The position numbers and the translations under genes are program-made. Positions 45,218 through 61,094 of a stretch of DNA of 64,000 nucleotides are shown here, in pieces; the stretch's first letter is position 1; every line of letters begins with the position of its first letter. The notes beneath the pieces were generated by a model. The model worked only from the letters and a program-made list of their open reading frames with translations, had not been told where the DNA came from and made no database searches. This DNA is from Alphaproteobacteria bacterium (GTDB taxonomy: Bacteria; Pseudomonadota; Alphaproteobacteria; TMED109), in NCBI GenBank assembly GCA_965116745.1, contig OZ220701.1, positions 436,744 through 500,743 of the forward strand. Direction: 5' to 3'.

Positions 45218-47284
45218 TCAGGCGGCCAGTTCGTGCCGCCGCTCGACGACGCGGAAATTCAGCTTCTCGGTGGGTTTCATCGACGGGAGCGGGTTGAACC
45301 GCAGCGCGTCGACGTACTTCGACGGCGACACCTCAAGGGTGACGTGACGAGCGATCATCAGCACGTTGACCGCAAGTTGCAGGTCCATCCACCGCGAACC
45401 CAGGCATTTGTGCGTGCCGAGTCCGTAGGGCGCGTAGCCCGGGTCGCGATGCTCGTCGCGTGGCGGCAGATAGCGGTCGATATCGAACGAGAACGGGTCG
45501 GGGAAGACTTCGTCCAGGTAATGCGTGGCGGTCTGGGCGATATGGACCCGCGAGCCCACCGGGATTTCGTGGCCCCCGATCACGAATGGGTTCATCACGT
45601 CCCGCATCGACATCGGCACGATCGGGTACATCCTGAGGCATTCCATCAGGAAGCGGTGCGTGACCCCCATCGAGGACATGCTGAAGTCGTCCCCGTCGGG
45701 ATCGCCGTGTTCGAACAGGGCATCGGCTTCCTCCCGGATTCTCTCGTGCAGCGCGGGCCGCGACGCCAGCACGTAAACCGCGAAGCTCAGCGCGTCGCCG
45801 AGATAGACGCTCGCGACCAACGACGCCGCCAGGGCGAAACGCAGGTTCGATTCCGGCACGAGCTGCGGATCGCTGGCGTGCAAGCTCAGCCAGTCATCTG
45901 CAAGGTCGCGCGAGCACCCGGCACGCTGGGCCGGCGTATGGACGCTCCGGATGCGTTCGATCAACGTGTCCACGGCCTTCGCCCGGCGCTTCATTCCCGG
46001 GGTATTGAGCATGAACTTGGGCAAGGCATGCATGATGTGAACGATGAGCGCCCGTTCCTTGAACTCGATCAGATCGTCAAGGATGTCCTGGGAGTCCACG
46101 CTGAGGAAGAGCGACGAGAGCTGCGCGTTGACCATTCGCCGGCACCTGCGTACGGGAAAAGTCTCGCCCACCGTCCAGTTCGCCATGAATTCGCGGGCGA
46201 GCCGGTACACCTGGTCCAGTTGACTCGACAGCCGGGCCCGTGAAAACGCCGGTCCCATGGCCTTGCGCAGCCGGAAATGATCGCCGCCGTCCAGCGAAGG
46301 CAATACGCCATGCGCGCCGTAGACTTTCTCGAAATCCGCGAAATAGCCCCAAGCCGTCAGGTGCATTCGCCCGTGCCGGTCCACCCACTCGTTGGTCTCC
46401 CGCCCGCCCAGGACGATCATGGGTTTGACGAACGGTGCACGGATCTCGAACACCGGGCCGTACTCTTTCGTCAGTTCGCCGAAGAGCGCGGGGACGTTGC
46501 CGCTGCGGACGTGGGGGCTGAGCAGCAACCGGCGTAGGGCGACGACGGGTCTTTTCTTGGTGAGCGTGGACCGCCGCAGCATCAGGCTGACGATGTTGTG
46601 TTCGACCGCGGCGGCGATCGAGCGGCCGATCAGGTCCATCCGGCAGATGAAATCAATGCGCTCCTGGGTCTCTTCGTCGATCTGGAACATGAAGCGAAGG
46701 ACGTCGCACGTGTTGACCAGGCAGATGATGATGATTTCCCGGGGTTCGGGAATCGCATCGGTGAAGAGCGCCTTGACGACCCGCGTCTTGATGAACTGCC
46801 CAACCGTGCCCGTTTGGGAGACGCCGAACAGGTCCTCGCGCCAGCGGGTCTCCGCCAGCGTCCAGAATTCGCCGTCGTGGTGTTCCAGGATCTCCGCTTC
46901 GACCAGGCGGTCCAGGGTCTGATCGATCATCGTGTCCGCGTTCAGGGCGAACTTCTCGATCCAGTACTGGGCGTTCCGGCGCTCCGGTTCCTCGGCGATT
47001 TCCTGCAGGATGGGATCGAGGACCGAATCGCCGGTTTCCGTTCGGTCCAGCAGGAACAGCGAGTCCAGGTCGGTGTCGATCCGCGAGAGCAGCGAGAGTT
47101 CCGCCAGCGCCGCGCCCACTACCGCACAATTGAGGGCCCAGCCGGGAACCTGGTGGAAATAGCCGGTCTGCTCGTTGAGGAGCATCAAGACGAGCTCCTC
47201 CGGCAGGGTCAGTGTTCGGATCGTCACGCCGCTATCGGGCATTGGCCCCGGCCCCACTTCCTCCTCTCGCTGTATCGACGCCAA
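45218..47284 (-). CDS. GOLPH3/GPP34-domain - cytochrome P450 fusion protein
   Basis: The N-terminal ~210 aa parallels human GOLPH3. LTLPEELVLMLLNEQTGY matches LTLMEEVLLLGLKDREGY; TGDSVLDPILQEIAEEPERRNAQYWIEKFA matches [30 protein letters not shown]. The C-terminal ~450 aa is a P450, with ExxR in ECLRMYP and heme loop YAPYGLGTHKCLGSRW. Confidence 0.85.
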   Translation of the reverse strand: MASIQREEEVGPGPMPDSGVTIRTLTLPEELVLMLLNEQTGYFHQVPGWALNCAVVGAALAELSLLSRIDTDLDSLFLLDRTETGDSVLDPILQEIAEEPERRNAQYWIEKFALNADTMIDQTLDRLVEAEILEHHDGEFWTLAETRWREDLFGVSQTGTVGQFIKTRVVKALFTDAIPEPREIIIICLVNTCDVLRFMFQIDEETQERIDFICRMDLIGRSIAAAVEHNIVSLMLRRSTLTKKRPVVALRRLLLSPHVRSGNVPALFGELTKEYGPVFEIRAPFVKPMIVLGGRETNEWVDRHGRMHLTAWGYFADFEKVYGAHGVLPSLDGGDHFRLRKAMGPAFSRARLSSQLDQVYRLAREFMANWTVGETFPVRRCRRMVNAQLSSLFLSVDSQDILDDLIEFKERALIVHIMHALPKFMLNTPGMKRRAKAVDTLIERIRSVHTPAQRAGCSRDLADDWLSLHASDPQLVPESNLRFALAASLVASVYLGDALSFAVYVLASRPALHERIREEADALFEHGDPDGDDFSMSSMGVTHRFLMECLRMYPIVPMSMRDVMNPFVIGGHEIPVGSRVHIAQTATHYLDEVFPDPFSFDIDRYLPPRDEHRDPGYAPYGLGTHKCLGSRWMDLQLAVNVLMIARHVTLEVSPSKYVDALRFNPLPSMKPTEKLNFRVVERRHELAA

Positions 47285-48828: not shown

Positions 48829-49785
48829 CTATCGCACCCGCTGGAGCGCCGTCCGGGTGAAGTCGCGAGCGTCAAGGTCGGTTCCAAACGCGTAGTCCGA
48901 CCAGTCCAGTATGGTGCTCTTGCCCGTGAGATGGTTGGTCATCGTGATCCTGCTGCTCCGCCAGAAACGATCCAGATATTGTGCGTAGTCTTCCATGACC
49001 ATCGTCTTGACATGCGCTTCCCGACGGTCGAAGAACTGGATCTGCATGGAGCGCAGTTCTTCCTTGTCCATCCATACCAGTTGACGGGAGTACCCGGAAT
49101 CCTCATTCAGCGGGATCCGCTCCAGAACGATGCATTCGAGCTCGCCGCAAGGCTCGTCCCGCAGGTACCGATGCATGAATTTCTCGACTTCCACGGTGCC
49201 GAGGTCCTCGTACGAGAACTCGCTGCCCATGAATGAGCCGGATTGATTCGCGGAGCTGATGCGCTTGACCCGTTTCAGGGCGGGGAGATAGAGCCACTGT
49301 TCGTCTGGCTCACCCTTGTGGACGTGAACGAGAAATGCGGTTCCCTTGACGTCGCGCGGGCGGTCGAACACGAACACGCTGCGGTCGCCGTCGCCCGCGA
49401 CCTCCATCACCTTCAGGCGGATTTCGCGATTGCTCTCCTGTCCCCGCTTGGTGCGCAGGGTCATGATCAGGTTAGACGTGAAGTTGCCGAAACCCTTTTG
49501 ACGTTCACGGGCCTCGGTCGCGATCCGGAGCCCCGCTTCTTCGGCGGTTTCAGCCTGCCCGACCGTAGGCACGGCCGCCCAGGCGAAGATGGCAAGTAGG
49601 ATCCCGAATGACGCCAGGACCGGGCGAGGAAGAGAAACGCGAATGACCGTTGCCTCCTGTCGATCACCGTAACCGCAACAGGAAACGTAGGAACTCGACG
49701 GAGAGGCCCGAGCAGTGAGCGGATCACATCGATTCCCGCACCTGTTGAAGCATGGTAGCACGATTCCTGCCATGCACCTGACCAT
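48829..49785 (-). CDS. LolA-like outer-membrane lipoprotein-sorting-type periplasmic protein
   Basis: DGDRSVFVFDRPRDVKGTAFLVHVHKGEPDEQWLYLPALKRVKRISSANQSGSFMGSEFSYEDL is the hallmark block of the LolA_like family that usually pairs with COG1033 RND genes. The start is uncertain; the signal-like segment begins near 49650. Confidence 0.75.
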   Translation of the reverse strand: MVRCMAGIVLPCFNRCGNRCDPLTARASPSSSYVSCCGYGDRQEATVIRVSLPRPVLASFGILLAIFAWAAVPTVGQAETAEEAGLRIATEARERQKGFGNFTSNLIMTLRTKRGQESNREIRLKVMEVAGDGDRSVFVFDRPRDVKGTAFLVHVHKGEPDEQWLYLPALKRVKRISSANQSGSFMGSEFSYEDLGTVEVEKFMHRYLRDEPCGELECIVLERIPLNEDSGYSRQLVWMDKEELRSMQIQFFDRREAHVKTMVMEDYAQYLDRFWRSSRITMTNHLTGKSTILDWSDYAFGTDLDARDFTRTALQRVR

Positions 49786-49827
49786 CTGCCACGGGACGGT
49801 CTTGTCCGCGGAGAGCAGCTTCCGTGC

Positions 49828-52155
49828 CTATCCGACCGACCGGCTCAGTCGCTCCCTGATCTGCGCGGTCGTTTCCTTCGTCGTGTCAAGCGCCATCAGC
49901 AACGGCGGAAGGAACAGGAAATCCGCCAGCAGGGCGATGATGACCGTGATCCCGACGAGCAGGCCGAGCGCCTGGTTGGTCACCATTCCCGATGCTCCGA
50001 ACACCATGAAGCCCAGCGCGAACACAACCGTCGTCGCGGTCAGCGCCTTGCCGACCGCGCCAAAGGCGGACTGAACGGACTCCGACGGCAACAGCCCGCG
50101 TTTCCTGGCGCCGACATACTTGGTCATGAAGTGGATCGTGTCGTCCACGATGATGCCGAACGCGATGGCGGTGACGACTGACGCCGCGACGCCGACCTCT
50201 CCTACCACGTATCCCCAAAGACCCATCGCCATGGCGGCCGGCAGGAAATTGGGGACTAGGCTGATCAGGCCGAGGCGCACGCTTCTGAAGACGAAGAGCA
50301 GGAGCAGGGACACGATGGCCATTGCCGCGATCGTGCCCCGCAGCATGCCCTCGATGTTCCGTTGAATTGAATGGGCGCCGACCACGGAAACGCCCGTGGC
50401 CTGGGTTTGCAGGTCGGGCGCGTTTTCCCGGAACCAGGCTTGCGTGCGATCGTCGAGGTCAACCTTCTCCCGGGTCGTGAGGCTCTTGAGCACGACCGTC
50501 ACGCGCGTCGAAGACCGTTCCACGTCGATGAGGTTGTTCAGATCGCGGCCGACCGGCAGAGAGAACTCGTAGAGCAGCAGGTACTGCGCAGCAAGGTCGG
50601 AGTCGTCCGGAAGCAGGTAGAAGCCGGGATCGTCGCCATGCAGGTTCTTGTTCAGGCGCTTCATGATGTCGGAGATGGCGAAGACGTGGGCCACCTCCGG
50701 TTGCGCCCGACTCCACTCCGCAAACGCGTCCACCTGCCGGAGATATTCGACATCCGTGATGCCGCCCTCCCGCCCGGAGTTGAGCGAGTACTCGTATGTT
50801 TCTACGCCGGTGAAGTTCTCGCTCACAAAGTCCGTGGATCGCCGGAACTCGTAGCTCTCGTCGAGCAGCTCAAGCCAGTTCTCGTGCAGCTCGATCCGCG
50901 AGATCCCGGCGATGAGCACGACCATCACGGCGGCGACCGACCAAAGCAGGGTCGTGCGGTAGGAAATGACGAACCGCGCCAGGCGATCGAAGATGTCTGC
51001 TTTTCCCGCCGGCGCAGGCCCGCCACGCATCGGCACAACGGTCAGGAAAGCGGGCAGCAGCGTGACCGAAAAGACGAAGGCCGCCATAGCGCCGAACGCC
51101 ACCATGTTGCCCATCACCCGAAACGGCGGCATGTCCGCGAAATTGAGGCTGAGAAAGCCGATTGCGGTTGTCACCGATGTCAGGAGAACCGGCCACACGT
51201 TGACCTGCAGGGAATGAATCGCTGCCTGCGGACGGTCCATGCCTTGGCGCAGGCCCGCCCGCATCCCCTCGATAATGTGCACGGAGTGCGCGACGGTGAC
51301 TGCCATCAAGACGAATAGCGCCGCGCCGCTCTCGCCGAACAACTTCAGCCCGACCCAACCGGTGAAACCCAGCGCGGACAGCATGACCGCGATCAGCATC
51401 ACGAGGATCGCCACCATTCCCCATAGCGAGCGCAACAGAACGATGGCGACGAGCAGCATGGTCCCGAGCGCGGCCGGCGCGAGGACGCCCATGTCATCGT
51501 CAATCGCCTGCTTCATGGCGCGGTTGAGGATGAGTTCGCCGGTCAGATGGTAGTCGATGGTCGGATACCGAGCTCTCTGTTCGGCGGCGGTACCGTGGAG
51601 GAAGTCGGTAACCTCGAATCGTCCCAGCTGTCGGTCCTCGGGAAGCGCGACGCTGACGACCAATCCGGCGATGCGACCATCCCTGGAAATGAAGCGCCCT
51701 GCGACTTCTTCGGTACTGAGCGCAATTTCGCGAATGCGTTCGATATCGCTGTCGCTCAGGGAACTGGCGTCGTCGATCAGGGGGGCGACGATCAGTTCGT
51801 CCTCGAGGCCCTCGCTGTGTGAATAGTTTGTGATCGAATCAACGCGGGTGACGTAGGGCGTTCGCCATAGCTGGTCGGTCAGCTCTTCAATGGCGACGAG
51901 CGCTTCCGGCGAGAAAACCGTACCGCCTTGCGGGGCCACGACCACCAGCGCGGCGTCGGAGAGCGAGTAGGTGGCTTCCAGCTCGTCGAGTGCGACGATG
52001 TGCGGGTCGTCTTGGCTGAAATGATTCCGAACGTCGACGTCAACGACAATGATGTACTGGGCGCCCGCGGCCAGGGCTAGCATTGCAACTAGTGAGAGTG
52101 CGATAGACAGCCATCGGCGCTCAACCGGTAGCGCGATGAAGGAATCCAAATTCAT
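49828..52155 (-). CDS. RND-superfamily lipid exporter (COG1033, MMPL/HpnN-like)
   Basis: 775 aa with two 6-TM bundles and two periplasmic loops. The N-terminal region ...HFSQDDPHIVALDELEATYS... is typical of predicted RND exporters. A LolA-like gene follows immediately on the same strand. Confidence 0.9.
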   Translation of the reverse strand: MNLDSFIALPVERRWLSIALSLVAMLALAAGAQYIIVVDVDVRNHFSQDDPHIVALDELEATYSLSDAALVVVAPQGGTVFSPEALVAIEELTDQLWRTPYVTRVDSITNYSHSEGLEDELIVAPLIDDASSLSDSDIERIREIALSTEEVAGRFISRDGRIAGLVVSVALPEDRQLGRFEVTDFLHGTAAEQRARYPTIDYHLTGELILNRAMKQAIDDDMGVLAPAALGTMLLVAIVLLRSLWGMVAILVMLIAVMLSALGFTGWVGLKLFGESGAALFVLMAVTVAHSVHIIEGMRAGLRQGMDRPQAAIHSLQVNVWPVLLTSVTTAIGFLSLNFADMPPFRVMGNMVAFGAMAAFVFSVTLLPAFLTVVPMRGGPAPAGKADIFDRLARFVISYRTTLLWSVAAVMVVLIAGISRIELHENWLELLDESYEFRRSTDFVSENFTGVETYEYSLNSGREGGITDVEYLRQVDAFAEWSRAQPEVAHVFAISDIMKRLNKNLHGDDPGFYLLPDDSDLAAQYLLLYEFSLPVGRDLNNLIDVERSSTRVTVVLKSLTTREKVDLDDRTQAWFRENAPDLQTQATGVSVVGAHSIQRNIEGMLRGTIAAMAIVSLLLLFVFRSVRLGLISLVPNFLPAAMAMGLWGYVVGEVGVAASVVTAIAFGIIVDDTIHFMTKYVGARKRGLLPSESVQSAFGAVGKALTATTVVFALGFMVFGASGMVTNQALGLLVGITVIIALLADFLFLPPLLMALDTTKETTAQIRERLSRSVG

Positions 52156-52794
52156 GTCAACGTGCCGAATCGGTATCAGGCTTCATGTATAGCACTTCCA
52201 GTCCACCCGGCCACGGGAGGAGCCGGTACGCCTGCCCATCCAGGCTGCTGTTCGTATCGCGGTTGCGGCAACCACCACCGGTATCGTCAAGTTAACAGTA
52301 TCGCGTTTGCCCCATTGCCTTCAATCAATACTGAAACGGTTGATAGGTACGGATGGTTGCCGGTGCGCCAGTGCCCGCTGCATCGCGCTGACGCAACCGT
52401 GTCCGGCAGAGAACGCTCCACGCGATCACGCCTGGCGCGCGCGGTTCAACTGCGGCAACTTCACGTCGAGACTTCGGAAAGTCCCCTCATCAGGCAGAGG
52501 GGCAGGCTATTGAATGTCGTCGACTTCAGATGGCTTGCAGGTCTCTTTTGTACGGTCATTCGTCTTGTTGCCGTACCACGACAGTGCTATTTGTCGGGTG
52601 ATGCGATACAGCAAGAACTGTGACGTCGGCTCGGCTACTGGCCTGCCGTCGACGTGCGACTTCCTCACCATCATTTGACATGGCGAGGACGAAACCTGGA
52701 TGCTTCAGGACCACGCACCGTCGCTCCCTTCGGTCTTGCGCAGTTCGCTGAGATAAAGGCGTCGCCATACCTGGGAACGAGAAATTGGCGAAAC

Positions 52795-53841
52795 GTGAAG
52801 AGCAGTTGCAGCACGGGTGACGTGACGGGCGCTCTGTTTCCGTTTCCCGAGGGCTGGTACTTCGTCATCAGCCGACGCTCTTTGGTAAAGAGCAAACTGA
52901 TTCAACGGCAGTGGCTGGGCCAGGACATCATCGCCTGGTGTGACAGTGAAGGCACTGTCTGCGTGGCCGAGTCGGTGTGCCCGCATATGGGTTCATCTCT
53001 GGGCCCGGCCGCAGGCGGGCAAGTGCGCGACGACTGTCTCGTCTGCCCCTTTCACGGGTTCACGTACGATATTTCCGGCAGTTGCGTGGCGACTCCCTTT
53101 GCTCCGCCGCCGAAATCCGTGAAGCTTCAGGTGCTCGATGTACGGGAAATTCATGGCCTGATCTTCGCCTGGTGGAGCGCAGCCGGACGACCGCCGCAAT
53201 GGACCTTGCCGGACGTGCCGTCCGCGGGAGACGACTGGTGCGCCCCGGAAGTCCGGAGCGTCCGATTTCGCGGCCATGTCCAGGAGTTGGCAGAGAACTC
53301 CGTGGATCTGGCCCACCTGCAGTACGTACATGGTTACCGAGACGTAAATCCGGTCGGCTCGACCACGGTGGATGGCGCCCATCTGCTTGCCCGGTTCGAG
53401 TTCCGCCGGCGCCGGCGTATCGCCGGCATTGTCGAGTCCGTCTACCAGGTTTCTGCTGCCGCCCACGTCCATGGGCTCGGTTACTCTTTCGTCGATATCC
53501 AGGAGCACTCGATCGGCATGGACCTGCGGCTCTGGGTCCTTGCCACCCCGGTCGACGGCACGTTGGTGGAGTTGGTCCTGGTCAGCCAGATCCGGAACAT
53601 GCGCAACCCCAAACGACCGATCGTGGGCCTGGGGTTCCTGCCCGCGAAGCTGCGCACCAGCGTCATGAACAAGTTCGTGGTATCCGCGCAAATGCGGGAT
53701 GTCCGCCAGGATGTCGTCATCTGGCAACGACGGCGGCATCGTCCGCATCCGCGATTGAGTCGTTCTGACGGCGACATCGGCAGATATCGTCGCTATTGCA
53801 AACAGTTCTATCCGCGCGTCGACGAAGGTGATGACAGGTAG
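52795..53841 (+). CDS. Rieske [2Fe-2S] non-heme iron oxygenase (sterol-desaturase/SdmA/KshA-like class)
   Basis: Rieske motif CPHMGSSL...(17)...CPFHGF, preceded by FPEGWYFV. The C-terminal catalytic region includes NSVDLAHLQYVHG. Start GTG 52795 is proposed; the 395-aa ORF start at 52654 adds a non-homologous leader. Confidence 0.8.
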   Translation: MKSSCSTGDVTGALFPFPEGWYFVISRRSLVKSKLIQRQWLGQDIIAWCDSEGTVCVAESVCPHMGSSLGPAAGGQVRDDCLVCPFHGFTYDISGSCVATPFAPPPKSVKLQVLDVREIHGLIFAWWSAAGRPPQWTLPDVPSAGDDWCAPEVRSVRFRGHVQELAENSVDLAHLQYVHGYRDVNPVGSTTVDGAHLLARFEFRRRRRIAGIVESVYQVSAAAHVHGLGYSFVDIQEHSIGMDLRLWVLATPVDGTLVELVLVSQIRNMRNPKRPIVGLGFLPAKLRTSVMNKFVVSAQMRDVRQDVVIWQRRRHRPHPRLSRSDGDIGRYRRYCKQFYPRVDEGDDR

Positions 53842-53975: not shown

Positions 53976-55334
53976 CTACGCCTTCCTGAACCGTGACCCG
54001 TGCAGGATGCTCCCATAGTGGTTGAACCACCGCCTGGCCTCGGGGTCGTCAAAGGGATAGTCGGCGCCAAGCTGCCTCGCCGCGGCGAGGCCGGTGATGA
54101 GGCATGTCTCCTGGCTGTTGATCAGCGTGTGAGCGCCGCAGTGCCACGTCCTTCGCTTGCCCTGAATGAAGCGGAACAGGCCCACGAGCATCGTGACTTG
54201 ACGCAGGTCATGAACGATATGCTGGAACCGGCGCTTCGAGATGATTTTCAGCTCGTCGATGGGACTGGTCGCGTTGTAGGTCACCAGGCAGGGCTTGTCC
54301 GAACGCTTGGCCCAGGGCTGCTGGTTGTGGATGATGTGCGTGATCTCGTAATTGTCAGGTTTGTCGCCGTACTGCCGGATGTAGTTGGTCCGAGTGGCCA
54401 GGCACTTCATGTCGTTGTCGGGCAGGACAGAGGAGTCCCAGTGAACGACGGCTTGACGGTGGATATCGTTGTCGTATCGGATTGACGAAAGGATGAAGCG
54501 TTCGAGCCGGGAAGGCTGGTCCAGGATTTTCAGGGTCTGGTCTGCCGGGCATGCAAACACAACCTCGTCGAACGTTTCCCGGGCCCCGGACGCATCCTCA
54601 ATCACGACGCCGGATGCCTGTCGGTACACCTTCGAGACCGGCCGGTTGAGGTAGATTTTGTCCCGGAAGCCAGCCGACAGGTTCTCGTAGATTCGTCGAG
54701 TCCCCTGATCCCACGTCCACATGGGGGTGCCCGTCTCGATATTGAAGAATTCGAGATACCTCGAGAAGAGCGCCGCTGGCAGATCGAACACGTTCGAGGC
54801 CAGTACGAAATTGATGAACATCGGCTTCAGGATCTTGTACCGGAAGGCCTCGGAAAATCCCCCCAGATTCAAGACCGTCCGCATGCTGACGTAATTGAAC
54901 GGGTTGAGGGCGTTCAGGTACTTGGACCGGGCGCGGCTGAGCCAGCCGATCCAGTGCAAACGTCTCAGGAGGCGCTGAAACTTCCTGATTTCGGATTGAA
55001 GATCGTCCCTGATCTCGGACTCGAAATCATGGGCGTAGGCTTGGCCACCGTACTCGACGCTGTAGGTGAACCTGGTATCAATGAGCTTGATATCGAACGC
55101 TTCCATCAGCAACAGGACGTGGTGATACACTGATGGAATAAGGGCCGTGACCGATATGTCGAAGGGAATTGAACTGCCGTCATTCTGGGGCATGTCGACG
55201 GTGACCGCGTTCCCGCCGAGCTGCTCCTGGGCCTCGAACAGGCGGAAATCAAAACGGTCCGGGTGATGATGCAGCGCCCAGGCGGCGCCCAGTCCCGAGA
55301 CGCCTCCACCCACAACAGCAATTCGTTGCGGCAT
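53976..55334 (-). CDS. FAD-dependent oxidoreductase (amine-oxidase fold, COG2907-like)
   Basis: Dinucleotide fold MPQRIAVVGGGVSGLGAAWAL...FEAQEQLGGNA and the C-terminal ...HCGAHTLINSQETCLITGLAAARQLG. GC is visibly lower than in the flanks. Confidence 0.8.
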   Translation of the reverse strand: MPQRIAVVGGGVSGLGAAWALHHHPDRFDFRLFEAQEQLGGNAVTVDMPQNDGSSIPFDISVTALIPSVYHHVLLLMEAFDIKLIDTRFTYSVEYGGQAYAHDFESEIRDDLQSEIRKFQRLLRRLHWIGWLSRARSKYLNALNPFNYVSMRTVLNLGGFSEAFRYKILKPMFINFVLASNVFDLPAALFSRYLEFFNIETGTPMWTWDQGTRRIYENLSAGFRDKIYLNRPVSKVYRQASGVVIEDASGARETFDEVVFACPADQTLKILDQPSRLERFILSSIRYDNDIHRQAVVHWDSSVLPDNDMKCLATRTNYIRQYGDKPDNYEITHIIHNQQPWAKRSDKPCLVTYNATSPIDELKIISKRRFQHIVHDLRQVTMLVGLFRFIQGKRRTWHCGAHTLINSQETCLITGLAAARQLGADYPFDDPEARRWFNHYGSILHGSRFRKA

Positions 55335-55757
55335 TGCGGTTTTCCTCGCAAATCTCGGAACTTGGAAACTTACCACCGTGCCCGATCGCCCACTAGGCAG
55401 CCATGCTGCTTGGCCGCGCCATGGCAGGAAGAAACGAACCGCCGGTCAGGCAGCGACAGCGATGTCGGACCCGAGGCCGCCGTCTGGCCAAATCACTGCC
55501 GTGCCGCGGCGTGCCCTTCGTAGTGCGTTTGCGATTAACGTGCGTCGAGTGCCTGATCTCGGGGGACGTCTGATCGATGGGATCGAGATCTGGTGAAGGC
55601 GGTGCAGCACCCGCGGTTGTGTCCCTGCATTGCGGGCGGCGTGGCGCCCGGTTCTGTTCATGGCGGTAGCTCCCGTGGCCAGCCAAACGGGGGGTCCAAT
55701 CAGAATGTTGTTCGCGGCCTGCCGAAGCGTCATCATCCTTTCCGAGTGAGAACCGGC

Positions 55758-56537
55758 ATGCATTTTCTCGTGTTTTCGAAGCGGTTCGGGCTGGCCGTTC
55801 TCGCGCTGCTTTCGTGCGTTTCGGCCCAGGCCGCCGATTGGAGCAACACCGAATTTCATCTCCAGGTCGGCCGTCTGGATGCCCCCTCTTTCGCTGGCGG
55901 CGGCAGAGCCCTACACGTGATCCATACGCTGCAGCACGCAAGCGGATGGCAATATGGCGACAACTTCTTCTTCGTTGACGTCGTGGATTCGCGGCAGCCC
56001 GGCGCCCCCGACATCGACTTCTACAGCGAAGCCTACGCGAACTTGAGCCTTGGCAAGATTACCGGCGGTCGCGTCGGCACCGGCCTGGTTTCGGATATCG
56101 GGCTGATCGGCGGCTTCAACTGGGCCGTGGACGCGAAGGTCCGAAAATATGCAGCCGGCGTACGGCTGGCGCTCGGCCTCGAGGGTTTTGCGTTCGCGAA
56201 CCTCGACCTGATGGCCCTGATCGACGACAGCGAGGGGTTCGTGTCCGGCGGGGCGCCCGCGGAGGACGACACTATCCTCATCGACTTCAACTTCGCACGG
56301 CCGTTCAGGATCGGCACAGCGGACTTCAGCCTCGAAGGCCATATCGAATATGTCGGCGGGCGGACCAACGAACTCGGCGGCACGGTGGGATCGTGGATCT
56401 TGGCGCAGCCCCAGCTGCAGTGGCACTTGACTGATCGGCTCGCGCTCGGGATCGAGTACCAGTTGTGGATCAACAAGTTGGGCGACCGGGACACCGACGA
56501 GAACGCCGTGCAGGCTTTGATCGTGTGGGAATTCTAG
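55758..56537 (+). CDS. Tsx/OmpK-like outer-membrane channel
   Basis: Signal peptide MHFLVFSKRFGLAVLALLSCVSAQA. ADWSNTEFHLQVG... and the terminal ...NAVQALIVWEF match the Tsx/OmpK family pattern. Confidence 0.7.
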   Translation: MHFLVFSKRFGLAVLALLSCVSAQAADWSNTEFHLQVGRLDAPSFAGGGRALHVIHTLQHASGWQYGDNFFFVDVVDSRQPGAPDIDFYSEAYANLSLGKITGGRVGTGLVSDIGLIGGFNWAVDAKVRKYAAGVRLALGLEGFAFANLDLMALIDDSEGFVSGGAPAEDDTILIDFNFARPFRIGTADFSLEGHIEYVGGRTNELGGTVGSWILAQPQLQWHLTDRLALGIEYQLWINKLGDRDTDENAVQALIVWEF

Positions 56538-57134
56538 GCCCTGCGTCGGTCGGGCTCACGCGTGCGGCCATGACAATCCGCCAGGCGACGCCACCGACCG
56601 AATGGTTGCGCCCGCCGCCCCGGAGGAATGGTCCTGCGCGAAGAGTGCGTAGCGTGGGTTGGTCGAGCGTGAGGTCGCCGCGCCGAACGGAGCGCCGATC
56701 CATAGGTTTAAGTTCAACCGGTACTGGATCCGGGTGCCGGGACGCGGCACCCTGTGCGTGGAGGTGCCGTACTGTGCGAACGTCCGGCCCGGCAATGGGT
56801 TCCCCGTGCGGCGGCATCGGCCACCTGGACGACGCGTGGTCCGGGGATCGCGAAGTGCGGGCTGCTGTCGCAGCTGGCACCGAGCCTGGCCCGCATCGGC
56901 GGAGTATCCGGATCGGCAGGGGTGCCGAAGCGCCGGTCACGAGAGAGACGAAGCGCGGTCGTGCGCTGCCCGGGATTCCGGTGCCTGGATCCAATCCGAA
57001 CCGACGATGATGGTCGACGCGAACGCGATCCGTGGCGCGCTGCCCGAACCTGCAGCTGATGTGGGTGCGGCCGTTCTCGCGGGTGGCGTACCATCCCCGC
57101 GCAGACAGGCAGGGCAAGCGGGCGGAGTCCTGCC

Positions 57135-58130
57135 ATGCGGGTGATCACGGGAGCGAGCGGCCATATCGGCGGTGTGCTCGCCCGAGTGCTGGCCGACCGG
57201 GGTGATCCCCGTCAGGTCCGCGCGATCTACCGCGATCGGAAAGGAACGGCAGCCGATCTCGCCATTGAGTGGGTCGGTGGCGACATCCTCGACCAGGAAT
57301 CGCTGGTTGCCGCGTTCTCGGGAGCGGAAACCGTCTACCACCTGGCCGCCTTGGTGTCGATTGACCCCGGCCGGGCCAAGGATGTCCACACGACGAACGT
57401 GTCGGGCACGCGCAACGTCGTTGAGGCAGCCCTGCGCTGCGGCGTGCGGCGGCTGGTGCACGTTTCCTCGATTCACGCCTTCAACCAGCACCCGCTCGAC
57501 GAAGTGCTCGACGAGCGCCGTGGTCCCGCCGACGGTCCGTGGCACGCCGCCTACGACCTGTCGAAAGCGGCAGGCGAACGGGAGATTCGGCGCGGCATTG
57601 ATCGCGGCCTCGATGCCGTGATCCTCAACCCGACCAGCGTCATCGGCCCCTTCGACGGCGTGCCCTCGTACATGGGACACGTGTTCCTCGACCTGTACCG
57701 GAGACGCATTCCCGCGCAGGTTGCGGGCGGCTTCGACTGGGTGGACGTGCGCGACGTGGTCGACGCCACGGTGGCCGCCGAGACGAAGGCGAGGTGCGGC
57801 GAGAACTACCTCCTGTCAGGCGGCTGGGATACCGTGCGCAACCTGGCGATCCTGTCCGAGCAGGCGACCGGGGTGCCGGTGTCGCGTTTCGTGGTCCCCT
57901 TGTTCGTGGCCCGGCTCTGGGCGCCCTTTCAGGTCATGTTGGACCGTAGTCAGGGGCGCCGGCCGCTCTATACGCCGTCGGCGGTACGCGTGATGAGCAA
58001 CGGCAACCGCCGGATATCCAACGCCAAGGCGCGGGCGGAACTCGGGTTCGAGCCGCGTCCCTTGGCAGATTCCGTACGGGATGCCTACCGTTGGTTCGAC
58101 GAGCAGGGCATGCTCGGCGAAGCTGGTTGA
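57135..58130 (+). CDS. extended short-chain dehydrogenase/reductase (3-beta-HSD/HpnA/dihydroflavonol reductase-like)
   Basis: MRVITGASGHIGGVLARVL (Rossmann fold), YDLSKAAGE (YxxxK), 331 aa. Confidence 0.85.
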   Translation: MRVITGASGHIGGVLARVLADRGDPRQVRAIYRDRKGTAADLAIEWVGGDILDQESLVAAFSGAETVYHLAALVSIDPGRAKDVHTTNVSGTRNVVEAALRCGVRRLVHVSSIHAFNQHPLDEVLDERRGPADGPWHAAYDLSKAAGEREIRRGIDRGLDAVILNPTSVIGPFDGVPSYMGHVFLDLYRRRIPAQVAGGFDWVDVRDVVDATVAAETKARCGENYLLSGGWDTVRNLAILSEQATGVPVSRFVVPLFVARLWAPFQVMLDRSQGRRPLYTPSAVRVMSNGNRRISNAKARAELGFEPRPLADSVRDAYRWFDEQGMLGEAG

Positions 58131-58131
58131 G

Positions 58132-58893
58132 ATGGCCGAGGAACAACTGCACGGCGTGCTGGTATGGGCGGTCATCGCCGCGGCCGGCCTGACGTTCCTG
58201 TACCTGCTCCGCCTGACCGCGCCCTACGGCCGCCACTACGCCGGCACGGGCTGGGGGCCCCACATCTCCAGCCGGCTCGGCTGGGTCATCATGGAACTGC
58301 CGGCGGTCGTCATCTTTCTCGCGGTCTATCTCGCCGGAAAGTCGGCGTCCCATCTCGTGCCGCTGTTCTTCCTGGCCATGTGGCAGGTCCACTATCTGAA
58401 CCGGACGTTCGTGTTTCCGTTCCGGATCCGGGCAAGCGGACGGAAGACGCCGCTGCTGATCGTGGCGTCAGGCTTGTTCTTCAATGCGATCAACGCCTAC
58501 ATCAATGCCCGGTTCATTTCGGAATTCGGCGAGTACGCGGTCGAATGGCTCGCCGACCCGCGTTTCCTGATCGGCGTCGGAGTTTTCCTGGCGGGGATGG
58601 CGCTCAACCTGCACGCCGACCACGTCCTCATTCGCCTGCGTGGACCGGGCGAGACCGGCTACGTGATCCCGCAGGGAGGCGGGTATCGCTTCGTGTCGTG
58701 TCCCAACTACCTGGGTGAACTCCTCGAATGGGCCGGCTGGGCACTCGCCACGTGGTCGACGTGCGGTCTCGCCTTTTTCCTCTTTACCGCCGCCAATCTC
58801 GTGCCCAGGGCGCGCAGCAATCACCAATGGTACCGGGAGACCTTCAGCGATTACCCGCCTCGCCGGAAGGCGCTGATACCGGGCGTCTTCTGA
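58132..58893 (+). CDS. 3-oxo-5-alpha-steroid 4-dehydrogenase (steroid 5-alpha-reductase, SRD5A/DET2 family)
   Basis: The C-terminus GGGYRFVSCPNYLGELLEWAGWALATWSTCGLAFFLFTAANLVPRARSNHQWYRETFSDYPPRRKALIPGVF is collinear with human SRD5A1 (GGLFEYVTAANYFGEIMEWCGYALASWS...RAKEHHEWYLRKFEEYPKFRKIIIPFLF). The start ATG is 2 nt after the SDR stop. Confidence 0.85.
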   Translation: MAEEQLHGVLVWAVIAAAGLTFLYLLRLTAPYGRHYAGTGWGPHISSRLGWVIMELPAVVIFLAVYLAGKSASHLVPLFFLAMWQVHYLNRTFVFPFRIRASGRKTPLLIVASGLFFNAINAYINARFISEFGEYAVEWLADPRFLIGVGVFLAGMALNLHADHVLIRLRGPGETGYVIPQGGGYRFVSCPNYLGELLEWAGWALATWSTCGLAFFLFTAANLVPRARSNHQWYRETFSDYPPRRKALIPGVF

Positions 58894-58941: not shown

Positions 58942-59784
58942 TCAGCGGTTCGTCACCTGCAGCCACGTCCAGAGCAGGCCCATCATGACGGGCTGGTGCA
59001 GCAGGTAGTAGACGAGGCTGTTGCGGCCGAGGAAGCGGACGAACCGCCCGACGTGGCCTTCCATCCGGTAGACCGCCAGCCGGCGCAGCGCCCCCGCCCC
59101 GTGCGCCCATCTGGCGGCGCCGATACCAAAGAGCACCGCTGCCAGCCAGGGAAACACCGGGAAGTAGTCGCCCGAATTCGGGCGGGCGACCGACAGCCCG
59201 GTCCACTGCCAGATCCGCGCGTCCAGCAACTCGGTCTGCACCGTTTCGTTGATGGCGAGAATGGCCACCGCCGCGGCCACCGCCAGCCACCACGGGCCCC
59301 GCACGAACGCCAGGCCGGCGATGCCGGCAAACGCGATCAGGTGCAGGATGCCGAAAAAGATCAGCGACTGTGGCGTGGCGATCCAGGTGGCAGCGGTGAT
59401 GGCCAGCGCCCCCAGGACGATCAGCGCCAGCCGCCGGGCCCAGCGCGTCCAGTGGAAGGCGTGCGCGTGCGCGAGATAGAGGCTCGCGCCCGTCGCGAAC
59501 AGGAAGCTGATGGCCACGGCCTTGGCCAGGGCCGCCCAGTGGAGCTGCGTCGTGTAGCCGGGCTCCTGCAGCCCAAAGAACATCAGATCGTAGGCAAAAT
59601 GGAATACGGTCATCCCGATGAGCGCGACCCCCCGCAGCAGGTCCAGCAGCGGGATCCGGGGGACGCTCTCGGTTCCGGCTCGTCGATGGTCCGCGCCGGA
59701 ACGTCCGGCCGGGGCCTGGGCGCCCTGCCGCCGGGATCTCCGCGGTTTCGCTCTCGCTGCCCGTGGTCCGCGCCTTCGAGCCAT
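58942..59784 (-). CDS. DUF1624/HGSNAT-like membrane acyltransferase-family protein
   Basis: RIPLLDLLRGVALIGMTVFHFAYDL... and multiple TM segments are typical of DUF1624. Confidence 0.7.
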   Translation of the reverse strand: MARRRGPRAARAKPRRSRRQGAQAPAGRSGADHRRAGTESVPRIPLLDLLRGVALIGMTVFHFAYDLMFFGLQEPGYTTQLHWAALAKAVAISFLFATGASLYLAHAHAFHWTRWARRLALIVLGALAITAATWIATPQSLIFFGILHLIAFAGIAGLAFVRGPWWLAVAAAVAILAINETVQTELLDARIWQWTGLSVARPNSGDYFPVFPWLAAVLFGIGAARWAHGAGALRRLAVYRMEGHVGRFVRFLGRNSLVYYLLHQPVMMGLLWTWLQVTNR

Positions 59785-60110: not shown

Positions 60111-61094
60111 GTGAAGTACCGTCGATTGGGCCGCACCGACCTTGAAGTTTCTGAGATCGTCTTCGGTGCCGGGTGGGTTGGCGGCGTCCTGATCCATCAC
60201 GATGCGGAAGTCGGGCGGGCGGCGCTGCGCCTCGCCCGGGAAGCCGGCGTCAACTGGATCGATACCGCCCCGTCCTACGGCGACGGGATCTCGGAGCGTG
60301 CCCTCGGCAAGCTCCTGCCGGAATTCGACTGGAATCCTTATCTCTCGACCAAGTTCCATGTCGATCCGGCGAGCGACCGTCCGGTATCCGAGCAGATCGA
60401 GGAGAGCGTCAGGGGGAGCCTCGCCCGTTTGAACCGGACCTCCGTCGACCTTCTGCAGCTGCACAACCCGCTTGGGGCCGGAAGCGACGCGCGCTGCCTG
60501 GCTGTTGACCGCGTCCTCGAGCCCGGCGGCGTGGCGGATGCGCTTGATGACCTGAAGCGCCGGGGCGTGACCCGTTACGCCGGCTTCACGGCAAACGGCG
60601 ACGCGGACAGCCTGAAGCGGATGGTGACCAGCGCACGGTTCGACACTGCGCAGGTCTATTACAACATGCTGAATCCCAGTGCGGGACGACCGGTGCCCGG
60701 CGGCTGGTCGGCGATCGATTTCGGCAACGTGATCGCCCATTGCGAACGGTGCGATGTCGGGGTGTTCGTCATCCGCGTGCTGGCAGCGGGGGTGCTGGCG
60801 ACCGCGGCGCGGACGGGGCGGGAGATCCCCATGTACGCGAGCGCCGACATGGCCTCCGAGGAAATGCGCGCCCGCGCCGTCTGGGATGCCATCGACGGGG
60901 AGCCGGGCAGCCGGGCGCAGGCGGCGATCCGCTTCGTGCTCGACGACCGGCGCGTCCACGGCGTCCTGGTCGGTCCCAACGTGCCCGAGCACGTGAGCGA
61001 GGCGGCAGCGGCAGTGGACATGGCGCCGCTGCAACCGGACACGGGCGCAGCGCTCCGCCGCCTGTACACGCGCGACTTCGGGCAGCTCAGCTGA
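60111..61094 (+). CDS. aldo/keto reductase
   Basis: MKYRRLGRTDLEVSEIVFGAG...INWIDTAPSYGDGISERALGK...VDLLQLHNP are canonical AKR blocks. Confidence 0.9.
   Translation: MKYRRLGRTDLEVSEIVFGAGWVGGVLIHHDAEVGRAALRLAREAGVNWIDTAPSYGDGISERALGKLLPEFDWNPYLSTKFHVDPASDRPVSEQIEESVRGSLARLNRTSVDLLQLHNPLGAGSDARCLAVDRVLEPGGVADALDDLKRRGVTRYAGFTANGDADSLKRMVTSARFDTAQVYYNMLNPSAGRPVPGGWSAIDFGNVIAHCERCDVGVFVIRVLAAGVLATAARTGREIPMYASADMASEEMRARAVWDAIDGEPGSRAQAAIRFVLDDRRVHGVLVGPNVPEHVSEAAAAVDMAPLQPDTGAALRRLYTRDFGQLS

What the first reader, a model, noticed from the sequence alone, without database searches (positions are those of the whole stretch)
57135..58893. Translationally coupled SDR and steroid 5-alpha-reductase pair (delta-4-3-ketosteroid to 5-alpha-stanone logic)
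Seen: the SDR stop (TGA, 58128-58130) is followed 1 nt later by the ATG of an SRD5A-family protein. The C-terminal 70 residues of that protein align almost without gaps, by eye, to human SRD5A1. An aldo/keto reductase lies 1.2 kb downstream.

Established: in animals and plants the order is 3-beta-HSD/isomerase, then 5-alpha-reductase (DET2), then 3-ketoreductase (often an AKR or SDR). This converts delta-5 sterols into 5-alpha-stanols.

Inference: the same three-step logic may operate here, giving stanols, possibly 24-alkylated ones.
Basis: partly seen in the sequence, partly recalled or inferred. Interest (0 to 1): 0.6.

Follow-up and report, generated by a model that had tools for sequence, protein, structure and literature searches.

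The report
Sponge-symbiont SDR plus steroid 5-alpha-reductase operon
[quoted passage not shown] The pair has been passed between many unrelated sponge bacteria and probably saturates sterols taken from the host or from neighbouring microbes.

Summary
An extended SDR (57135-58130) ends in TGA, and one base later the ATG of a 253-aa SRD5A-family protein (58132-58893) begins.

- **The reductase.** It is an SRD5A1/2/DET2-type enzyme: 53% identical to the assayed bacterial PbSRD5A, 38% to human SRD5A2 and 28% to a TECR-type enzyme. The catalytic Glu/Tyr and the NADPH-binding residues are intact. Met replaces the Gln of the "QEY" motif.
- **The SDR.** It is not a classical 3beta-HSD/isomerase. It is a separate paralogue within the SdmB/HpnA clade, whose known members act at sterol C-3.
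- **Conservation.** The stop/start junction recurs across at least six phyla, and both genes are under purifying selection.
- **Distribution.** The pair belongs to a clade shared horizontally among sponge-type MAGs of nine phyla. There it commonly follows the sponge-specific GPP34-P450 fusion, and in one genome it abuts a complete sterol synthesis cluster.
- **Substrate source.** The window's genome has no cyclase, ERG24 or SdmA, so any sterol substrate must come from outside the cell.
- **The AKR.** It is a separate transcription unit, syntenic only in close relatives. It is not supported as a third step.

Most likely function: C-3 oxidation/reduction plus 5-alpha saturation of sterols. Confidence is moderate and the chemistry is untested.

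The parts
57135..58130 (+). Extended short-chain dehydrogenase/reductase (331 aa) of the SdmB/HpnA clade; the putative sterol C-3 oxidoreductase
   Evidence: Pfam Epimerase 109 bits and 3Beta_HSD 72 bits. NCBIfam SdmB 211 bits and HpnA 200 bits, both below cut-off. TGxxGxxG, S111/S112, Y140 and K144 are invariant in 31 SRD5A-adjacent homologues. AF2 model pLDDT 92.5; Foldseek top hit is Gox2253 (3wj7). No TM segment; hydrophobic helix at about 247-270. dN/dS 0.15-0.22.
58128..58134 (+). Stop/start junction TGA-G-ATG (1-nt spacer), the probable site of translational coupling
   Evidence: Read directly from the sequence. The same junction occurs in 15 loci and overlapping stop/start junctions (4 to 14 nt) in 9 others. 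No strong Shine-Dalgarno sequence is seen upstream (sequence reading).
58132..58893 (+). SRD5A1/2/DET2-type 3-oxo-steroid 5-alpha-reductase homologue (253 aa, about 7 TM)
   Evidence: Pfam Steroid_dh 177.5 bits. PDB 7c83 E 3.6e-81, 7bw1 E 7.7e-45, TECR-like 22of E 1.5e-9. Identity 53/38/28%. E55, Y88, N159, D163, R170, N192, E196, R226, H231 and Y234 conserved; M54 stands in place of Gln56. 6-7 hydrophobic segments. dN/dS 0.18-0.26.
58942..59784 (-). HGSNAT_cat/DUF1624 membrane protein, convergent on the pair; a neighbour, not shown to belong
   Evidence: Pfam 214.6 bits. Syntenic only in L002-L004, L010 and L042.
60111..61094 (+).
   Evidence: Pfam Aldo_ket_red 116 bits. Separate transcription unit. 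Present near the pair only in close alphaproteobacterial relatives.
45218..47284 (-). Context: GPP34(GOLPH3)-cytochrome P450 fusion. In 14 related loci it lies directly upstream of SDR-SRD5A; here it has been displaced 10 kb away
   Evidence: Pfam p450 plus GPP34. Best PDB hit CYP51, 83 bits. Adjacency in relatives. The fusion is reported only from sponge symbionts (PMC11706023).
47422..48459 (+). Context: sterol methyltransferase homologue with Sterol_MT_C domain
   Evidence: Three such genes in the genome.
48829..52155 (-). Context: LolA-like periplasmic protein plus MMPL/HAE3 RND transporter (lipid trafficking pair)
   Evidence: Found next to SRD5A in other phyla.
52654..53841 (+). Context: Rieske oxygenase with KshA-type C-terminal domain
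   Evidence: Pfam KshA_C 87.5 bits. PDB KshA 98 bits. Only 40 bits to SdmA.
53976..55376 (-). Context: amine-oxidase-fold flavoprotein
55593..56537 (+). Context: protein with no family hit (possible outer-membrane protein) upstream of the pair on the same strand, 600 nt away
   Evidence: No Pfam or NCBIfam hit. Conserved upstream of the SDR in L002-L004.

Best explanation
The two genes form one translationally coupled unit that saturates ring A/B of sterols.

The integral-membrane SRD5A homologue uses NADPH to reduce the C4=C5 double bond of a 3-oxo-delta4 steroid to the 5-alpha-3-ketone. The mechanism would be Glu55/Tyr88 polarising the C-3 carbonyl, with hydride transfer to C-5.

The soluble or peripheral SDR, a paralogue of the sterol C-3 enzyme SdmB, works on the C-3 oxygen. 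It would oxidise the 3beta-hydroxyl to give the enone that the reductase needs, and/or reduce the 5-alpha-3-ketone back to a stanol. One SDR doing both outer steps is how DHRSX works with SRD5A3 in dolichol synthesis.

This genome has no triterpene cyclase, so the substrates would be sterols imported from the sponge host or from sterol-making neighbours. Import may run through the adjacent MMPL/LolA-like system. The products would be 5-alpha-stanones or stanols.

Shown: gene structure, family membership, residue conservation, conserved coupling, horizontal sharing, sterol-gene neighbourhood, and absence of de novo synthesis. Inferred: the substrate, the direction of the SDR reaction, and the import route.
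For: - Family. PDB phmmer gives PbSRD5A 276 bits, human SRD5A2 157 bits and TECR-like 41 bits. Identities are 53/38/28%. PbSRD5A reduces progesterone in vitro, and Glu57/Tyr91 plus the listed NADPH residues are essential (PMC7815742). All are conserved here.
- SDR. Full-length matches to SdmB (211 bits) and HpnA (200 bits). SdmB-family enzymes oxidise or reduce sterol C-3; the Calothrix SdmB alone makes lanosterone (PMC10202945). The catalytic S/Y/K are invariant.
- Coupling. The 1-nt or overlapping junction is conserved in 24 loci. An SDR lies adjacent in 30 of 80 loci. SDR and SRD5A pairwise identities correlate at r=0.96. dN/dS is 0.15-0.26.
- Sterol context. The window carries an SMT, a CYP51-clan P450 fusion, a KshA-like Rieske protein and MMPL/LolA. 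In L019 the cassette abuts SMT, an SE-OSC fusion, CYP51, ERG24, SdmA-like and SdmB-like genes. Sterol-linked neighbours occur in 19 of 39 loci of the sponge-type clade and 0 of 41 elsewhere.
- No de novo route. No cyclase, no ERG24, and no SE-OSC or SdmA by tblastn.
- Precedents. Bacteroidota 5AR clustered with 3beta-HSDH (PMC10382948). DHRSX/SRD5A3 three-step logic (PMC11250103).
Against: - No chemistry or expression data.
- Gln56 of the QEY motif is Met here. Q56A/L abolishes activity in the human enzyme. However, Met is the majority state in an unbiased sample of homologues, 87 of 115.
- The SDR's nearest solved relatives are not sterol enzymes. It scores far below the SdmB cut-off. Nothing identifies a delta5-to-delta4 isomerase activity.
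- The SRD5A superfamily also reduces polyprenal and enoyl-CoA. Bacterial homologues outside the sponge clade sit in non-sterol contexts.
- De novo bacterial sterols from the L019-type cluster would be delta8 sterols, with no obvious route to a delta4-3-ketone.
- Only about half of the loci in the sponge-type clade have the SDR or any sterol-linked gene nearby.
Confidence: 0.55

Rival explanations
1. The pair is the downstream half of a three-enzyme cassette led by the GPP34-P450. The CYP51-clan P450 would oxidise a sterol methyl or ring position, for example an oxidative demethylation. The SdmB-like SDR would then do the C-3 oxidation/decarboxylation or keto-reduction, and the SRD5A homologue would reduce the resulting conjugated double bond. 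The product would be a remodelled nucleus rather than a plain stanol.
For: - GPP34-P450 lies directly upstream of SDR-SRD5A on the same strand in 14 loci, with a gap of only 65-98 nt in L019.
- The P450's best solved relatives are CYP51 sterol demethylases.
- The SDR's best model is the C-4 demethylation enzyme SdmB.
- ERG4/ERG24 sterol reductases and SRD5A both hit the DUF1295 model.
Against: - In this window the P450 is 10 kb away on the other strand, so the pair can be kept without it.
- The pair occurs without the P450 in Bacteroidota and Myxococcota.
- The P450 is only 83 bits from CYP51.
- The Glu/Tyr pair specific for a 3-oxo-4-ene is retained.
- L019 already has separate CYP51, ERG24, SdmA and SdmB genes.
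Confidence: 0.2
2. The pair acts on a non-steroid allylic alcohol, enal or enone, such as a polyprenol/polyprenal (a bacterial counterpart of DHRSX-SRD5A3), another isoprenoid, or a fatty enone. The sterol-like neighbourhood would then be coincidental or reflect a shared lipid theme.
For: - SRD5A3 reduces polyprenal, with an SDR doing steps 1 and 3 (PMC11250103).
- TECR-type relatives reduce enoyl-CoA.
- Thousands of bacterial homologues exist, most without sterol genes nearby.
- The SDR's structural neighbours reduce cinnamoyl-CoA and kavalactones.
- The genome has two SQS/PSY genes and so makes isoprenoids.
Against: - The protein is far closer to the assayed steroid reductases PbSRD5A and SRD5A2 than to the TECR type.
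- Its length and 7-TM layout match SRD5A1/2.
- The association with SMT, P450 and the sterol cluster is specific to its clade.
- No SRD5A3 sequence was on hand for a direct test.
Confidence: 0.15
3. The pair belongs to sterol/steroid breakdown or detoxification, for example removing bioactive host steroids or feeding a catabolic route, rather than producing membrane stanols.
For: - A KshA-type Rieske oxygenase lies 3 kb upstream.
- Thermodesulfobacteriota loci have beta-oxidation-type genes (acyl-CoA dehydrogenase, enoyl-CoA hydratase, thiolase) downstream of SRD5A.
- Steroid catabolism genes are known from sponge metagenomes (PMC5790920, title and abstract only).
Against: - 5-alpha reduction and C-24 methylation are not steps of the known 9,10-seco pathway (own knowledge).
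- The module sits next to sterol synthesis genes in L019.
- The catabolic core genes were not searched for in this genome.
Confidence: 0.07

Closest known systems
PbSRD5A (PDB 7C83), steroid 5-alpha-reductase from a 'Proteobacteria bacterium' (Han et al. 2021, PMC7815742)
   Same: 53% identical over 245 residues, with the same length and TM layout. The catalytic Glu/Tyr and all listed NADPH-binding residues are identical. In the tree it lies in the same large bacterial group.
   Different: PbSRD5A has the Gln of the QEY motif; the window protein has Met. The genomic context and natural substrate of PbSRD5A are not described. The window protein belongs to a separate, well-supported clade of sponge-type MAGs (99% SH-aLRT).
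Human SRD5A2 / SRD5A1 and plant DET2 (SRD5A1/2/DET2 subclass)
   Same: 38% identity to SRD5A2 over 244 residues, gap-free over the C-terminal 140. Same catalytic and cofactor residues. In plants and animals the enzyme also works between a 3beta-HSD step and a 3-ketoreductase step (established pathway knowledge).
   Different: Bacterial, operon-encoded and coupled to a single SDR of a different SDR lineage. Met replaces Gln56.
Gut Bacteroidota 5AR / 3beta-HSDH cluster that makes isoallo-lithocholic acid (Sato et al. 2021, as summarised in PMC10382948)
   Same: A bacterial SRD5A1-like gene clustered with a 3beta-hydroxysteroid dehydrogenase. Reduction of a 3-oxo-delta4 substrate is followed by 3-keto reduction. 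SRD5A homologues of Bacteroidota MAGs here also have an upstream SDR with a 6-nt gap or ATGA overlap.
   Different: The substrate there is a bile acid in the gut, and the cluster also has a flavin 5-beta-reductase. The Bacteroidota SDRs are only 31-45% identical to the window SDR. The Sato genes themselves were not compared.
DHRSX + SRD5A3 (polyprenol to polyprenal to dolichal to dolichol; Wilson et al. 2024, PMC11250103)
   Same: An SDR and an SRD5A-family reductase cooperate. The SDR does the first (oxidation) and third (reduction) steps, and the SRD5A enzyme reduces the conjugated C=C with NADPH. This is the logic proposed here for a single SDR.
   Different: DHRSX is a classical SDR and is not operon-linked. 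The substrate is a polyprenol. The window reductase resembles SRD5A1/2 rather than SRD5A3.
SdmB (and SdmC), bacterial sterol C-4 demethylation SDRs (Lee et al. 2018/2023, PMC10202945)
   Same: Same extended-SDR clade, with a full-length model match. These enzymes oxidise or reduce sterol C-3.
   Different: 211 bits against a 600-bit cut-off. Only 32% identical to the SdmB-like gene of L019's sterol cluster, which coexists with an SRD5A-coupled SDR in the same genome. No SdmA partner here.
Sterol gene clusters and GPP34_L proteins of sponge symbionts (Kelly et al. 2022 PMC9531527; Brown et al. 2023 PMC10070321; Ferreira et al. 2025 PMC11706023)
   Same: Same organisms, the same horizontal spread across phyla, and the same neighbouring genes (SMT, GPP34-P450, OSC/CYP51/ERG24).
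   Different: None of these papers mentions a 5-alpha-reductase. The words 'sterol' and 'steroid' do not occur in the GPP34 paper. Kelly's flanking 'DFR + hypothetical protein' corresponds to SdmB-like + SdmA-like, not to this pair. Public records call the protein 'DUF1295 domain-containing protein' or 'Ste14'.

Membership tests
Steroid 5-alpha-reductase family, SRD5A1/2/DET2 subclass | Pfam Steroid_dh (PF02544) domain above the gathering score | tested here: met
   177.5 bits against a 22.6 cut-off, covering profile positions 2-150 of 150.
Steroid 5-alpha-reductase family, SRD5A1/2/DET2 subclass | Closer to characterised steroid reductases than to TECR or polyprenal-reductase branches | tested here: inconclusive
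   PbSRD5A 276 bits, SRD5A2 157 bits, TECR-like art-1 41 bits; identities 53/38/28%. Human SRD5A2 nests among the bacterial sequences with art-1 as outgroup. No SRD5A3/DFG10, SRD5A1 or DET2 sequence was on hand, so the split from the SRD5A3 branch rests on length and on published similarity figures.
Steroid 5-alpha-reductase family, SRD5A1/2/DET2 subclass | Catalytic Glu57 and Tyr91 (human SRD5A2 numbering) | tested here: met
   E55 and Y88. Conserved in 111 and 113 of 115 rows of the unbiased-sample alignment.
Steroid 5-alpha-reductase family, SRD5A1/2/DET2 subclass | Gln56 of the 'QEY' signature | tested here: not met
   M54 stands in its place. Met occurs in 87 of 115 rows of the homologue alignment and Gln in 15. 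Q56A/L inactivates the human enzyme. This is a clade-wide variant, not a lesion.
Steroid 5-alpha-reductase family, SRD5A1/2/DET2 subclass | NADPH-binding residues N160, D164, R171, N193, E197, R227, H231, Y235 | tested here: met
   N159, D163, R170, N192, E196, R226, H231 and Y234 are all present.
Steroid 5-alpha-reductase family, SRD5A1/2/DET2 subclass | About 250-aa seven-helix membrane protein | tested here: met
   253 aa. Aligns to residues 14-257 of 7c83 with two small gaps. 6-7 hydrophobic segments.
Steroid 5-alpha-reductase family, SRD5A1/2/DET2 subclass | NADPH-dependent reduction of 3-oxo-delta4 steroids | not testable with these tools
   Needs an enzyme assay.
3beta-hydroxysteroid dehydrogenase/delta5-4 isomerase family (PF01073) | Family model is the best or a full-length match | tested here: not met
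   3Beta_HSD scores 72 bits and covers only residues 3-175. Epimerase scores 109 bits. No 3beta-HSD or NSDHL structure appears among the phmmer hits or the Foldseek top 50.
3beta-hydroxysteroid dehydrogenase/delta5-4 isomerase family (PF01073) | Extended-SDR Rossmann motif and Ser-Tyr-Lys catalytic residues | tested here: met
   TGASGHIGG; S111/S112, Y140 and K144 are invariant in 31 homologues. These features are shared by all extended SDRs and so are not specific.
SdmB (bacterial sterol C-4 demethylation reductase, NF052578) | Score at or above the equivalog cut-off | tested here: not met
   211 bits against a 600 cut-off. The SdmB-like gene in L019's sterol cluster scores 302 bits and is 32% identical to the window SDR.
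SdmB (bacterial sterol C-4 demethylation reductase, NF052578) | Partner Rieske oxygenase SdmA | tested here: not met
   The window's Rieske protein scores 40 bits to SdmA against a 600 cut-off and matches the KshA type instead. There is no SdmA-like hit in the genome by tblastn.
Bacteroidota 5AR / 3beta-HSDH cluster | SRD5A homologue adjacent to a 3-hydroxysteroid dehydrogenase-type SDR | tested here: met
   Adjacent, 1-nt spacer, conserved.
Bacteroidota 5AR / 3beta-HSDH cluster | Flavin 5-beta-reductase in the cluster; bile-acid substrate | not tested
   No BaiCD/BaiH-type gene was seen among the annotated neighbours, but this was not searched for specifically.

The most novel reading that the evidence does not exclude
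Sponge symbionts from many phyla, most of them unable to make sterols, share a mobile GPP34-P450 / SDR / SRD5A cassette. They would use it to rework host sterols into 5-alpha-stanols, or into nor-stanol nuclei if the CYP51-like P450 removes a methyl group before the enone is reduced. Part of the unusual 'sponge' sterol inventory, and of the sterane signal derived from it, would then be made by bacteria from host precursors.
Probability: 0.2. Interest if true: 0.8.

Novelty: new variant of a known kind. Interest (0 to 1): 0.55.

Why it matters
Bacterial SRD5A homologues are known from one crystal structure, from Treponema and from gut Bacteroidota acting on bile acids. A 5-alpha-reductase has not been reported as part of the sterol gene repertoire of sponge symbionts, and public records label these proteins "DUF1295" or "Ste14".

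Three consequences would follow if the pair really saturates sterols:
- It would give a concrete, testable enzyme basis for symbiont contributions to sponge stanols.
- It would give a metabolic reading to the sponge-specific GPP34-P450 fusion, now interpreted as a host-evasion factor.
- It would add to the debate on how far sponge sterol and sterane biomarkers are of animal or bacterial origin.

Most carriers lack a cyclase. That points to modification of host lipids as a symbiosis trait spread by gene transfer.

Tried and rejected
2. An exact look-up of the window protein found nothing. The 99% relative gave one ENA contig with the same gene order but no host information.
3. The search for homologous proteins and the search of protein representatives returned only unnamed, mostly metagenomic sequences. 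A tree with named SRD5A1, DET2 and SRD5A3 could therefore not be built.
4. I first suspected that Kelly et al.'s "DFR + hypothetical protein" flanking the sterol clusters was this pair. I rejected this: in L019 those positions are SdmB-like and SdmA-like genes on the other side of the cluster.
5. The Met-for-Gln change looked at first like an artefact of the pattern-based locus search, since GWVIMELP was one of the patterns. The unbiased representative search showed that Met is the common state.
6. The promoter/terminator scan and the fold of the SRD5A/HGSNAT intergenic region gave nothing above background. Rfam found nothing in the window.
7. Structure prediction and Foldseek of the SDR confirmed the extended-SDR fold but did not narrow the substrate.
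8. The other two SMT loci of the genome show no obvious sterol neighbours in a crude ORF listing and were not followed further.
9. Crude greedy ORF calling in GC-rich loci produced spurious overlapping ORFs. Only the tblastn-based neighbour counts are used.
Full report
**1. What is in the sequence**

- The + strand carries a 331-aa ORF at 57135-58130 whose stop is TGA at 58128-58130. Base 58131 is G, and ATG at 58132 opens a 253-aa ORF that ends at 58893.
- A longer in-frame ORF from 58081 is listed. However, more than 100 homologues are 253 aa long and align from residue 1, so 58132 is the start.
- I see no strong Shine-Dalgarno sequence in the last 15 nt of the upstream gene (GCGAAGCTGGTTGAG). 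The upstream gene itself has GGAG nine bases before its ATG. This is a reading of the sequence.
- Pfam puts the first protein in the extended SDRs (Epimerase 109 bits, 3Beta_HSD 72 bits) and the second in Steroid_dh (177.5 bits).
- An AKR lies at 60111-61094. A convergent HGSNAT_cat/DUF1624 gene (58942-59784) separates it from the pair.

**2. The reductase**

- Against all PDB sequences the protein hits three entries:

| PDB entry | Protein | E-value | Bits |
|---|---|---|---|
| 7c83 | PbSRD5A | 3.6e-81 | 276 |
| 7bw1 | human SRD5A2 | 7.7e-45 | 157 |
| 22of | C. elegans TECR-type art-1 | 1.5e-9 | 41 |

- BLASTP identities are 53%, 38% and 28% respectively. The alignment to SRD5A2 is gap-free from residue 112 to the end.
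- PbSRD5A reduces progesterone in vitro. In the human enzyme Q56, E57 and Y91 and eight NADPH-binding residues are essential (PMC7815742).
- Here E55, Y88, N159, D163, R170, N192, E196, R226, H231 and Y234 are all present. The Gln is replaced by M54.
- One of the patterns used to fetch loci contained this Met, so I checked an unbiased sample. In an alignment of 111 full-length representatives of the nearest 50%-identity clusters plus four reference rows (115 rows), Met occurs 87 times and Gln 15. The Met form is therefore the common, mostly bacterial, state and not a defect.
- Hydropathy shows 6-7 membrane segments.
- I could not obtain named SRD5A1, DET2 or SRD5A3 sequences. Separation from the polyprenal-reductase branch thus rests on length, on the much higher similarity to assayed steroid reductases, and on published similarity figures.

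**3. The SDR**

- Its best curated models are SdmB (211 bits, full length) and HpnA (200 bits). Both are far below their cut-offs.
- The closest solved structure is Gox2253 (3wj7, 142 bits). After that come cinnamoyl-CoA reductases and sugar epimerases, by sequence and by fold (AF2 model pLDDT 92.5; Foldseek). No 3beta-HSD or NSDHL structure is among them.
- TGxxGxxG, S111/S112, Y140 and K144 are invariant in 31 SRD5A-adjacent homologues.
- SdmB-family enzymes act on sterol C-3. SdmB decarboxylates and re-reduces during C-4 demethylation, and the Calothrix homologue alone oxidises lanosterol to lanosterone (PMC10202945).
- The protein is therefore best described as a distinct paralogue in a clade whose known members are sterol C-3 oxidoreductases. 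It is not a 3beta-HSD/isomerase.
- In the Paracoccaceae chromosome L019 both kinds coexist. An SdmB-like gene (302 bits) sits next to an SdmA-like Rieske gene (397 bits) in the sterol cluster, and a separate SDR (216 bits) sits in front of SRD5A. The window SDR is 77% identical to the latter and 32% to the former.

**4. The pairing is conserved and moves as a unit**

- Of 80 related loci, 30 have the SDR immediately upstream on the same strand.
- The junction is TGA/TAA-N-ATG in 15 loci spanning Alpha- and Gammaproteobacteria, Verrucomicrobiota, Latescibacterota, Rhodothermota and Binatota. It is an overlapping stop/start, of 4 nt (ATGA) up to 14 nt, in 9 loci of Bacteroidota, Myxococcota and Gemmatimonadota.
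- Pairwise identities of the two proteins across 31 pairs correlate at r=0.96.
- dN/dS is 0.15-0.26 for both genes. dS to the Latescibacterota copy is only 0.7-0.9.

**5. Distribution**

- A maximum-likelihood tree places the window protein in a 40-row clade (99% SH-aLRT) drawn from nine phyla. Within it is a 22-row subclade (99%) with very short branches that mixes eight phyla.
- Many of these MAGs belong to sponge series. The closest, SB0662_bin_7, shares its naming with the Ircinia ramosa MAG SB0661 named in PMC11706023.
- In the window's own lineage the gene is present in 9 of 12 species of the genus. It is absent from all 11 other genera of the family (25 genomes) and from all 24 other families sampled in the class.
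- This is the pattern of horizontal acquisition within a habitat.

**6. Context points to sterols, and to imported ones**

- The window carries the following:
  - a GPP34-P450 fusion whose best PDB hit is CYP51;
  - an SMT with the Sterol_MT_C domain;
  - a LolA-like/MMPL pair;
  - a KshA-type Rieske oxygenase;
  - a flavoprotein.
- The GPP34-P450 fusion has been reported only from sponge symbionts and was interpreted as a phagocytosis modulator. That paper never mentions sterols. In 14 related loci the fusion lies directly in front of SDR-SRD5A.
- In L019 the cassette abuts an SMT, a squalene-epoxidase/oxidosqualene-cyclase fusion, CYP51, ERG24, and SdmA-like and SdmB-like genes. Together these form a full sterol pathway.
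- Sterol-linked genes lie within 10 kb of the reductase in 19 of 39 loci of the sponge-type clade and in 0 of 41 loci of other clades.
- The window's complete 2.93-Mb genome has no cyclase, no ERG24, and no SE-OSC or SdmA homologue. It does have three SMT paralogues.
- Among 32 other carriers, only 8 have the OSC-type hit next to an SMT. Most carriers therefore cannot make the ring system themselves.

**7. Mechanism proposed**

- SRD5A-family enzymes need a carbonyl conjugated to the double bond. This holds for steroid 3-oxo-4-enes and for polyprenal in the revised dolichol pathway. There a single SDR, DHRSX, performs the oxidation before and the reduction after SRD5A3.
- By the same logic, the simplest reading has three steps:
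  1. The SDR oxidises the sterol 3beta-hydroxyl.
  2. The membrane reductase saturates C4=C5 with NADPH.
  3. The SDR, or another reductase, restores the hydroxyl, giving a 5-alpha-stanol.
- Gut Bacteroidota provide a bacterial precedent, with 5AR clustered with 3beta-HSDH.
- The near-abutting stop and start, kept across phyla, would make the soluble and the membrane partner in fixed proportion.
- All of this is inference. The direction of the SDR reaction, the isomerisation step and the substrate are untested.

**8. What is not supported**

- The AKR is a separate unit and is syntenic only in close alphaproteobacterial relatives. It cannot be assigned to the pathway.
- The SDR is not a demonstrable 3beta-HSD/isomerase.
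- Kelly et al.'s "DFR + hypothetical" flank of sponge sterol clusters is SdmB/SdmA-like, not this pair.

**9. Novelty**

- Bacterial SRD5A enzymes and SRD5A/SDR clustering are known.
- I found no paper tying a 5-alpha-reductase to sponge symbionts.
- Public records call these proteins "DUF1295" or "Ste14".
- Notes from other agents of this scan reached similar readings for related cassettes. They are not independent evidence.
- I rate the pair a new variant of a known kind, of moderate interest. A more interesting but unproven reading is that symbionts rework host sterols.

**10. Limits**

- No eukaryotic reference sequences were available beyond the PDB.
- Some MAG taxonomy labels may be affected by binning, although many carriers are complete chromosomes.

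Noticed in passing
L019:13634-17077 (-): A single 1147-aa ORF fuses a squalene epoxidase (SE, FAD_binding_3) to an oxidosqualene-cyclase (SQHop_cyclase_N and C) in a Paracoccaceae sponge-type chromosome. Similar frames of about 1150 aa lie next to an SMT in seven other SRD5A-bearing genomes.
   Followed up: partly
own genome C1: about 263.3 kb, 485.0 kb (the window) and 2553.9 kb; C1:2803382-2805263: The genome has three sterol-methyltransferase paralogues with the Sterol_MT_C domain and two tandem SQS/PSY-type genes, but no triterpene cyclase. The two SMTs outside the window have no obvious sterol neighbours in a crude ORF listing.
   Followed up: partly
L019:4772-5800 (-): A serine resolvase gene sits just upstream of the GPP34-P450 / SDR / SRD5A cassette, which fits the cassette being mobile.
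   Followed up: no
window 58942-59784 (-): An HGSNAT_cat/DUF1624 membrane protein (acetyltransferase-type family) is convergent on the reductase gene, 48 nt from its stop. It is kept together with the AKR in alphaproteobacterial relatives only, and its role is unknown.
   Followed up: no
L027, L028 (Thermodesulfobacteriota), downstream of SRD5A: In these small (1.9 Mb) genomes the reductase has no SDR partner. It is followed by acyl-CoA dehydrogenase, enoyl-CoA hydratase and thiolase-type ORFs. L027, L030 and L041 also have LolA-like, SMT or GPP34-P450 genes nearby.
   Followed up: partly
protein clusters of P0001, P0005, P0019, P0022: Public names for these SRD5A homologues are 'DUF1295 domain-containing protein' (NCBI; Rhodospirillales and Candidatus Dadabacteria MAGs) and 'protein-S-isoprenylcysteine O-methyltransferase Ste14' (IMG). 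The family is therefore hidden from keyword searches.
   Followed up: yes
window 56538-57134: A 600-nt gap lies between the upstream gene (no family hit) and the SDR. It has no Rfam hit and no promoter-like or terminator-like site above background. The promoter of the pair was not located.
   Followed up: partly
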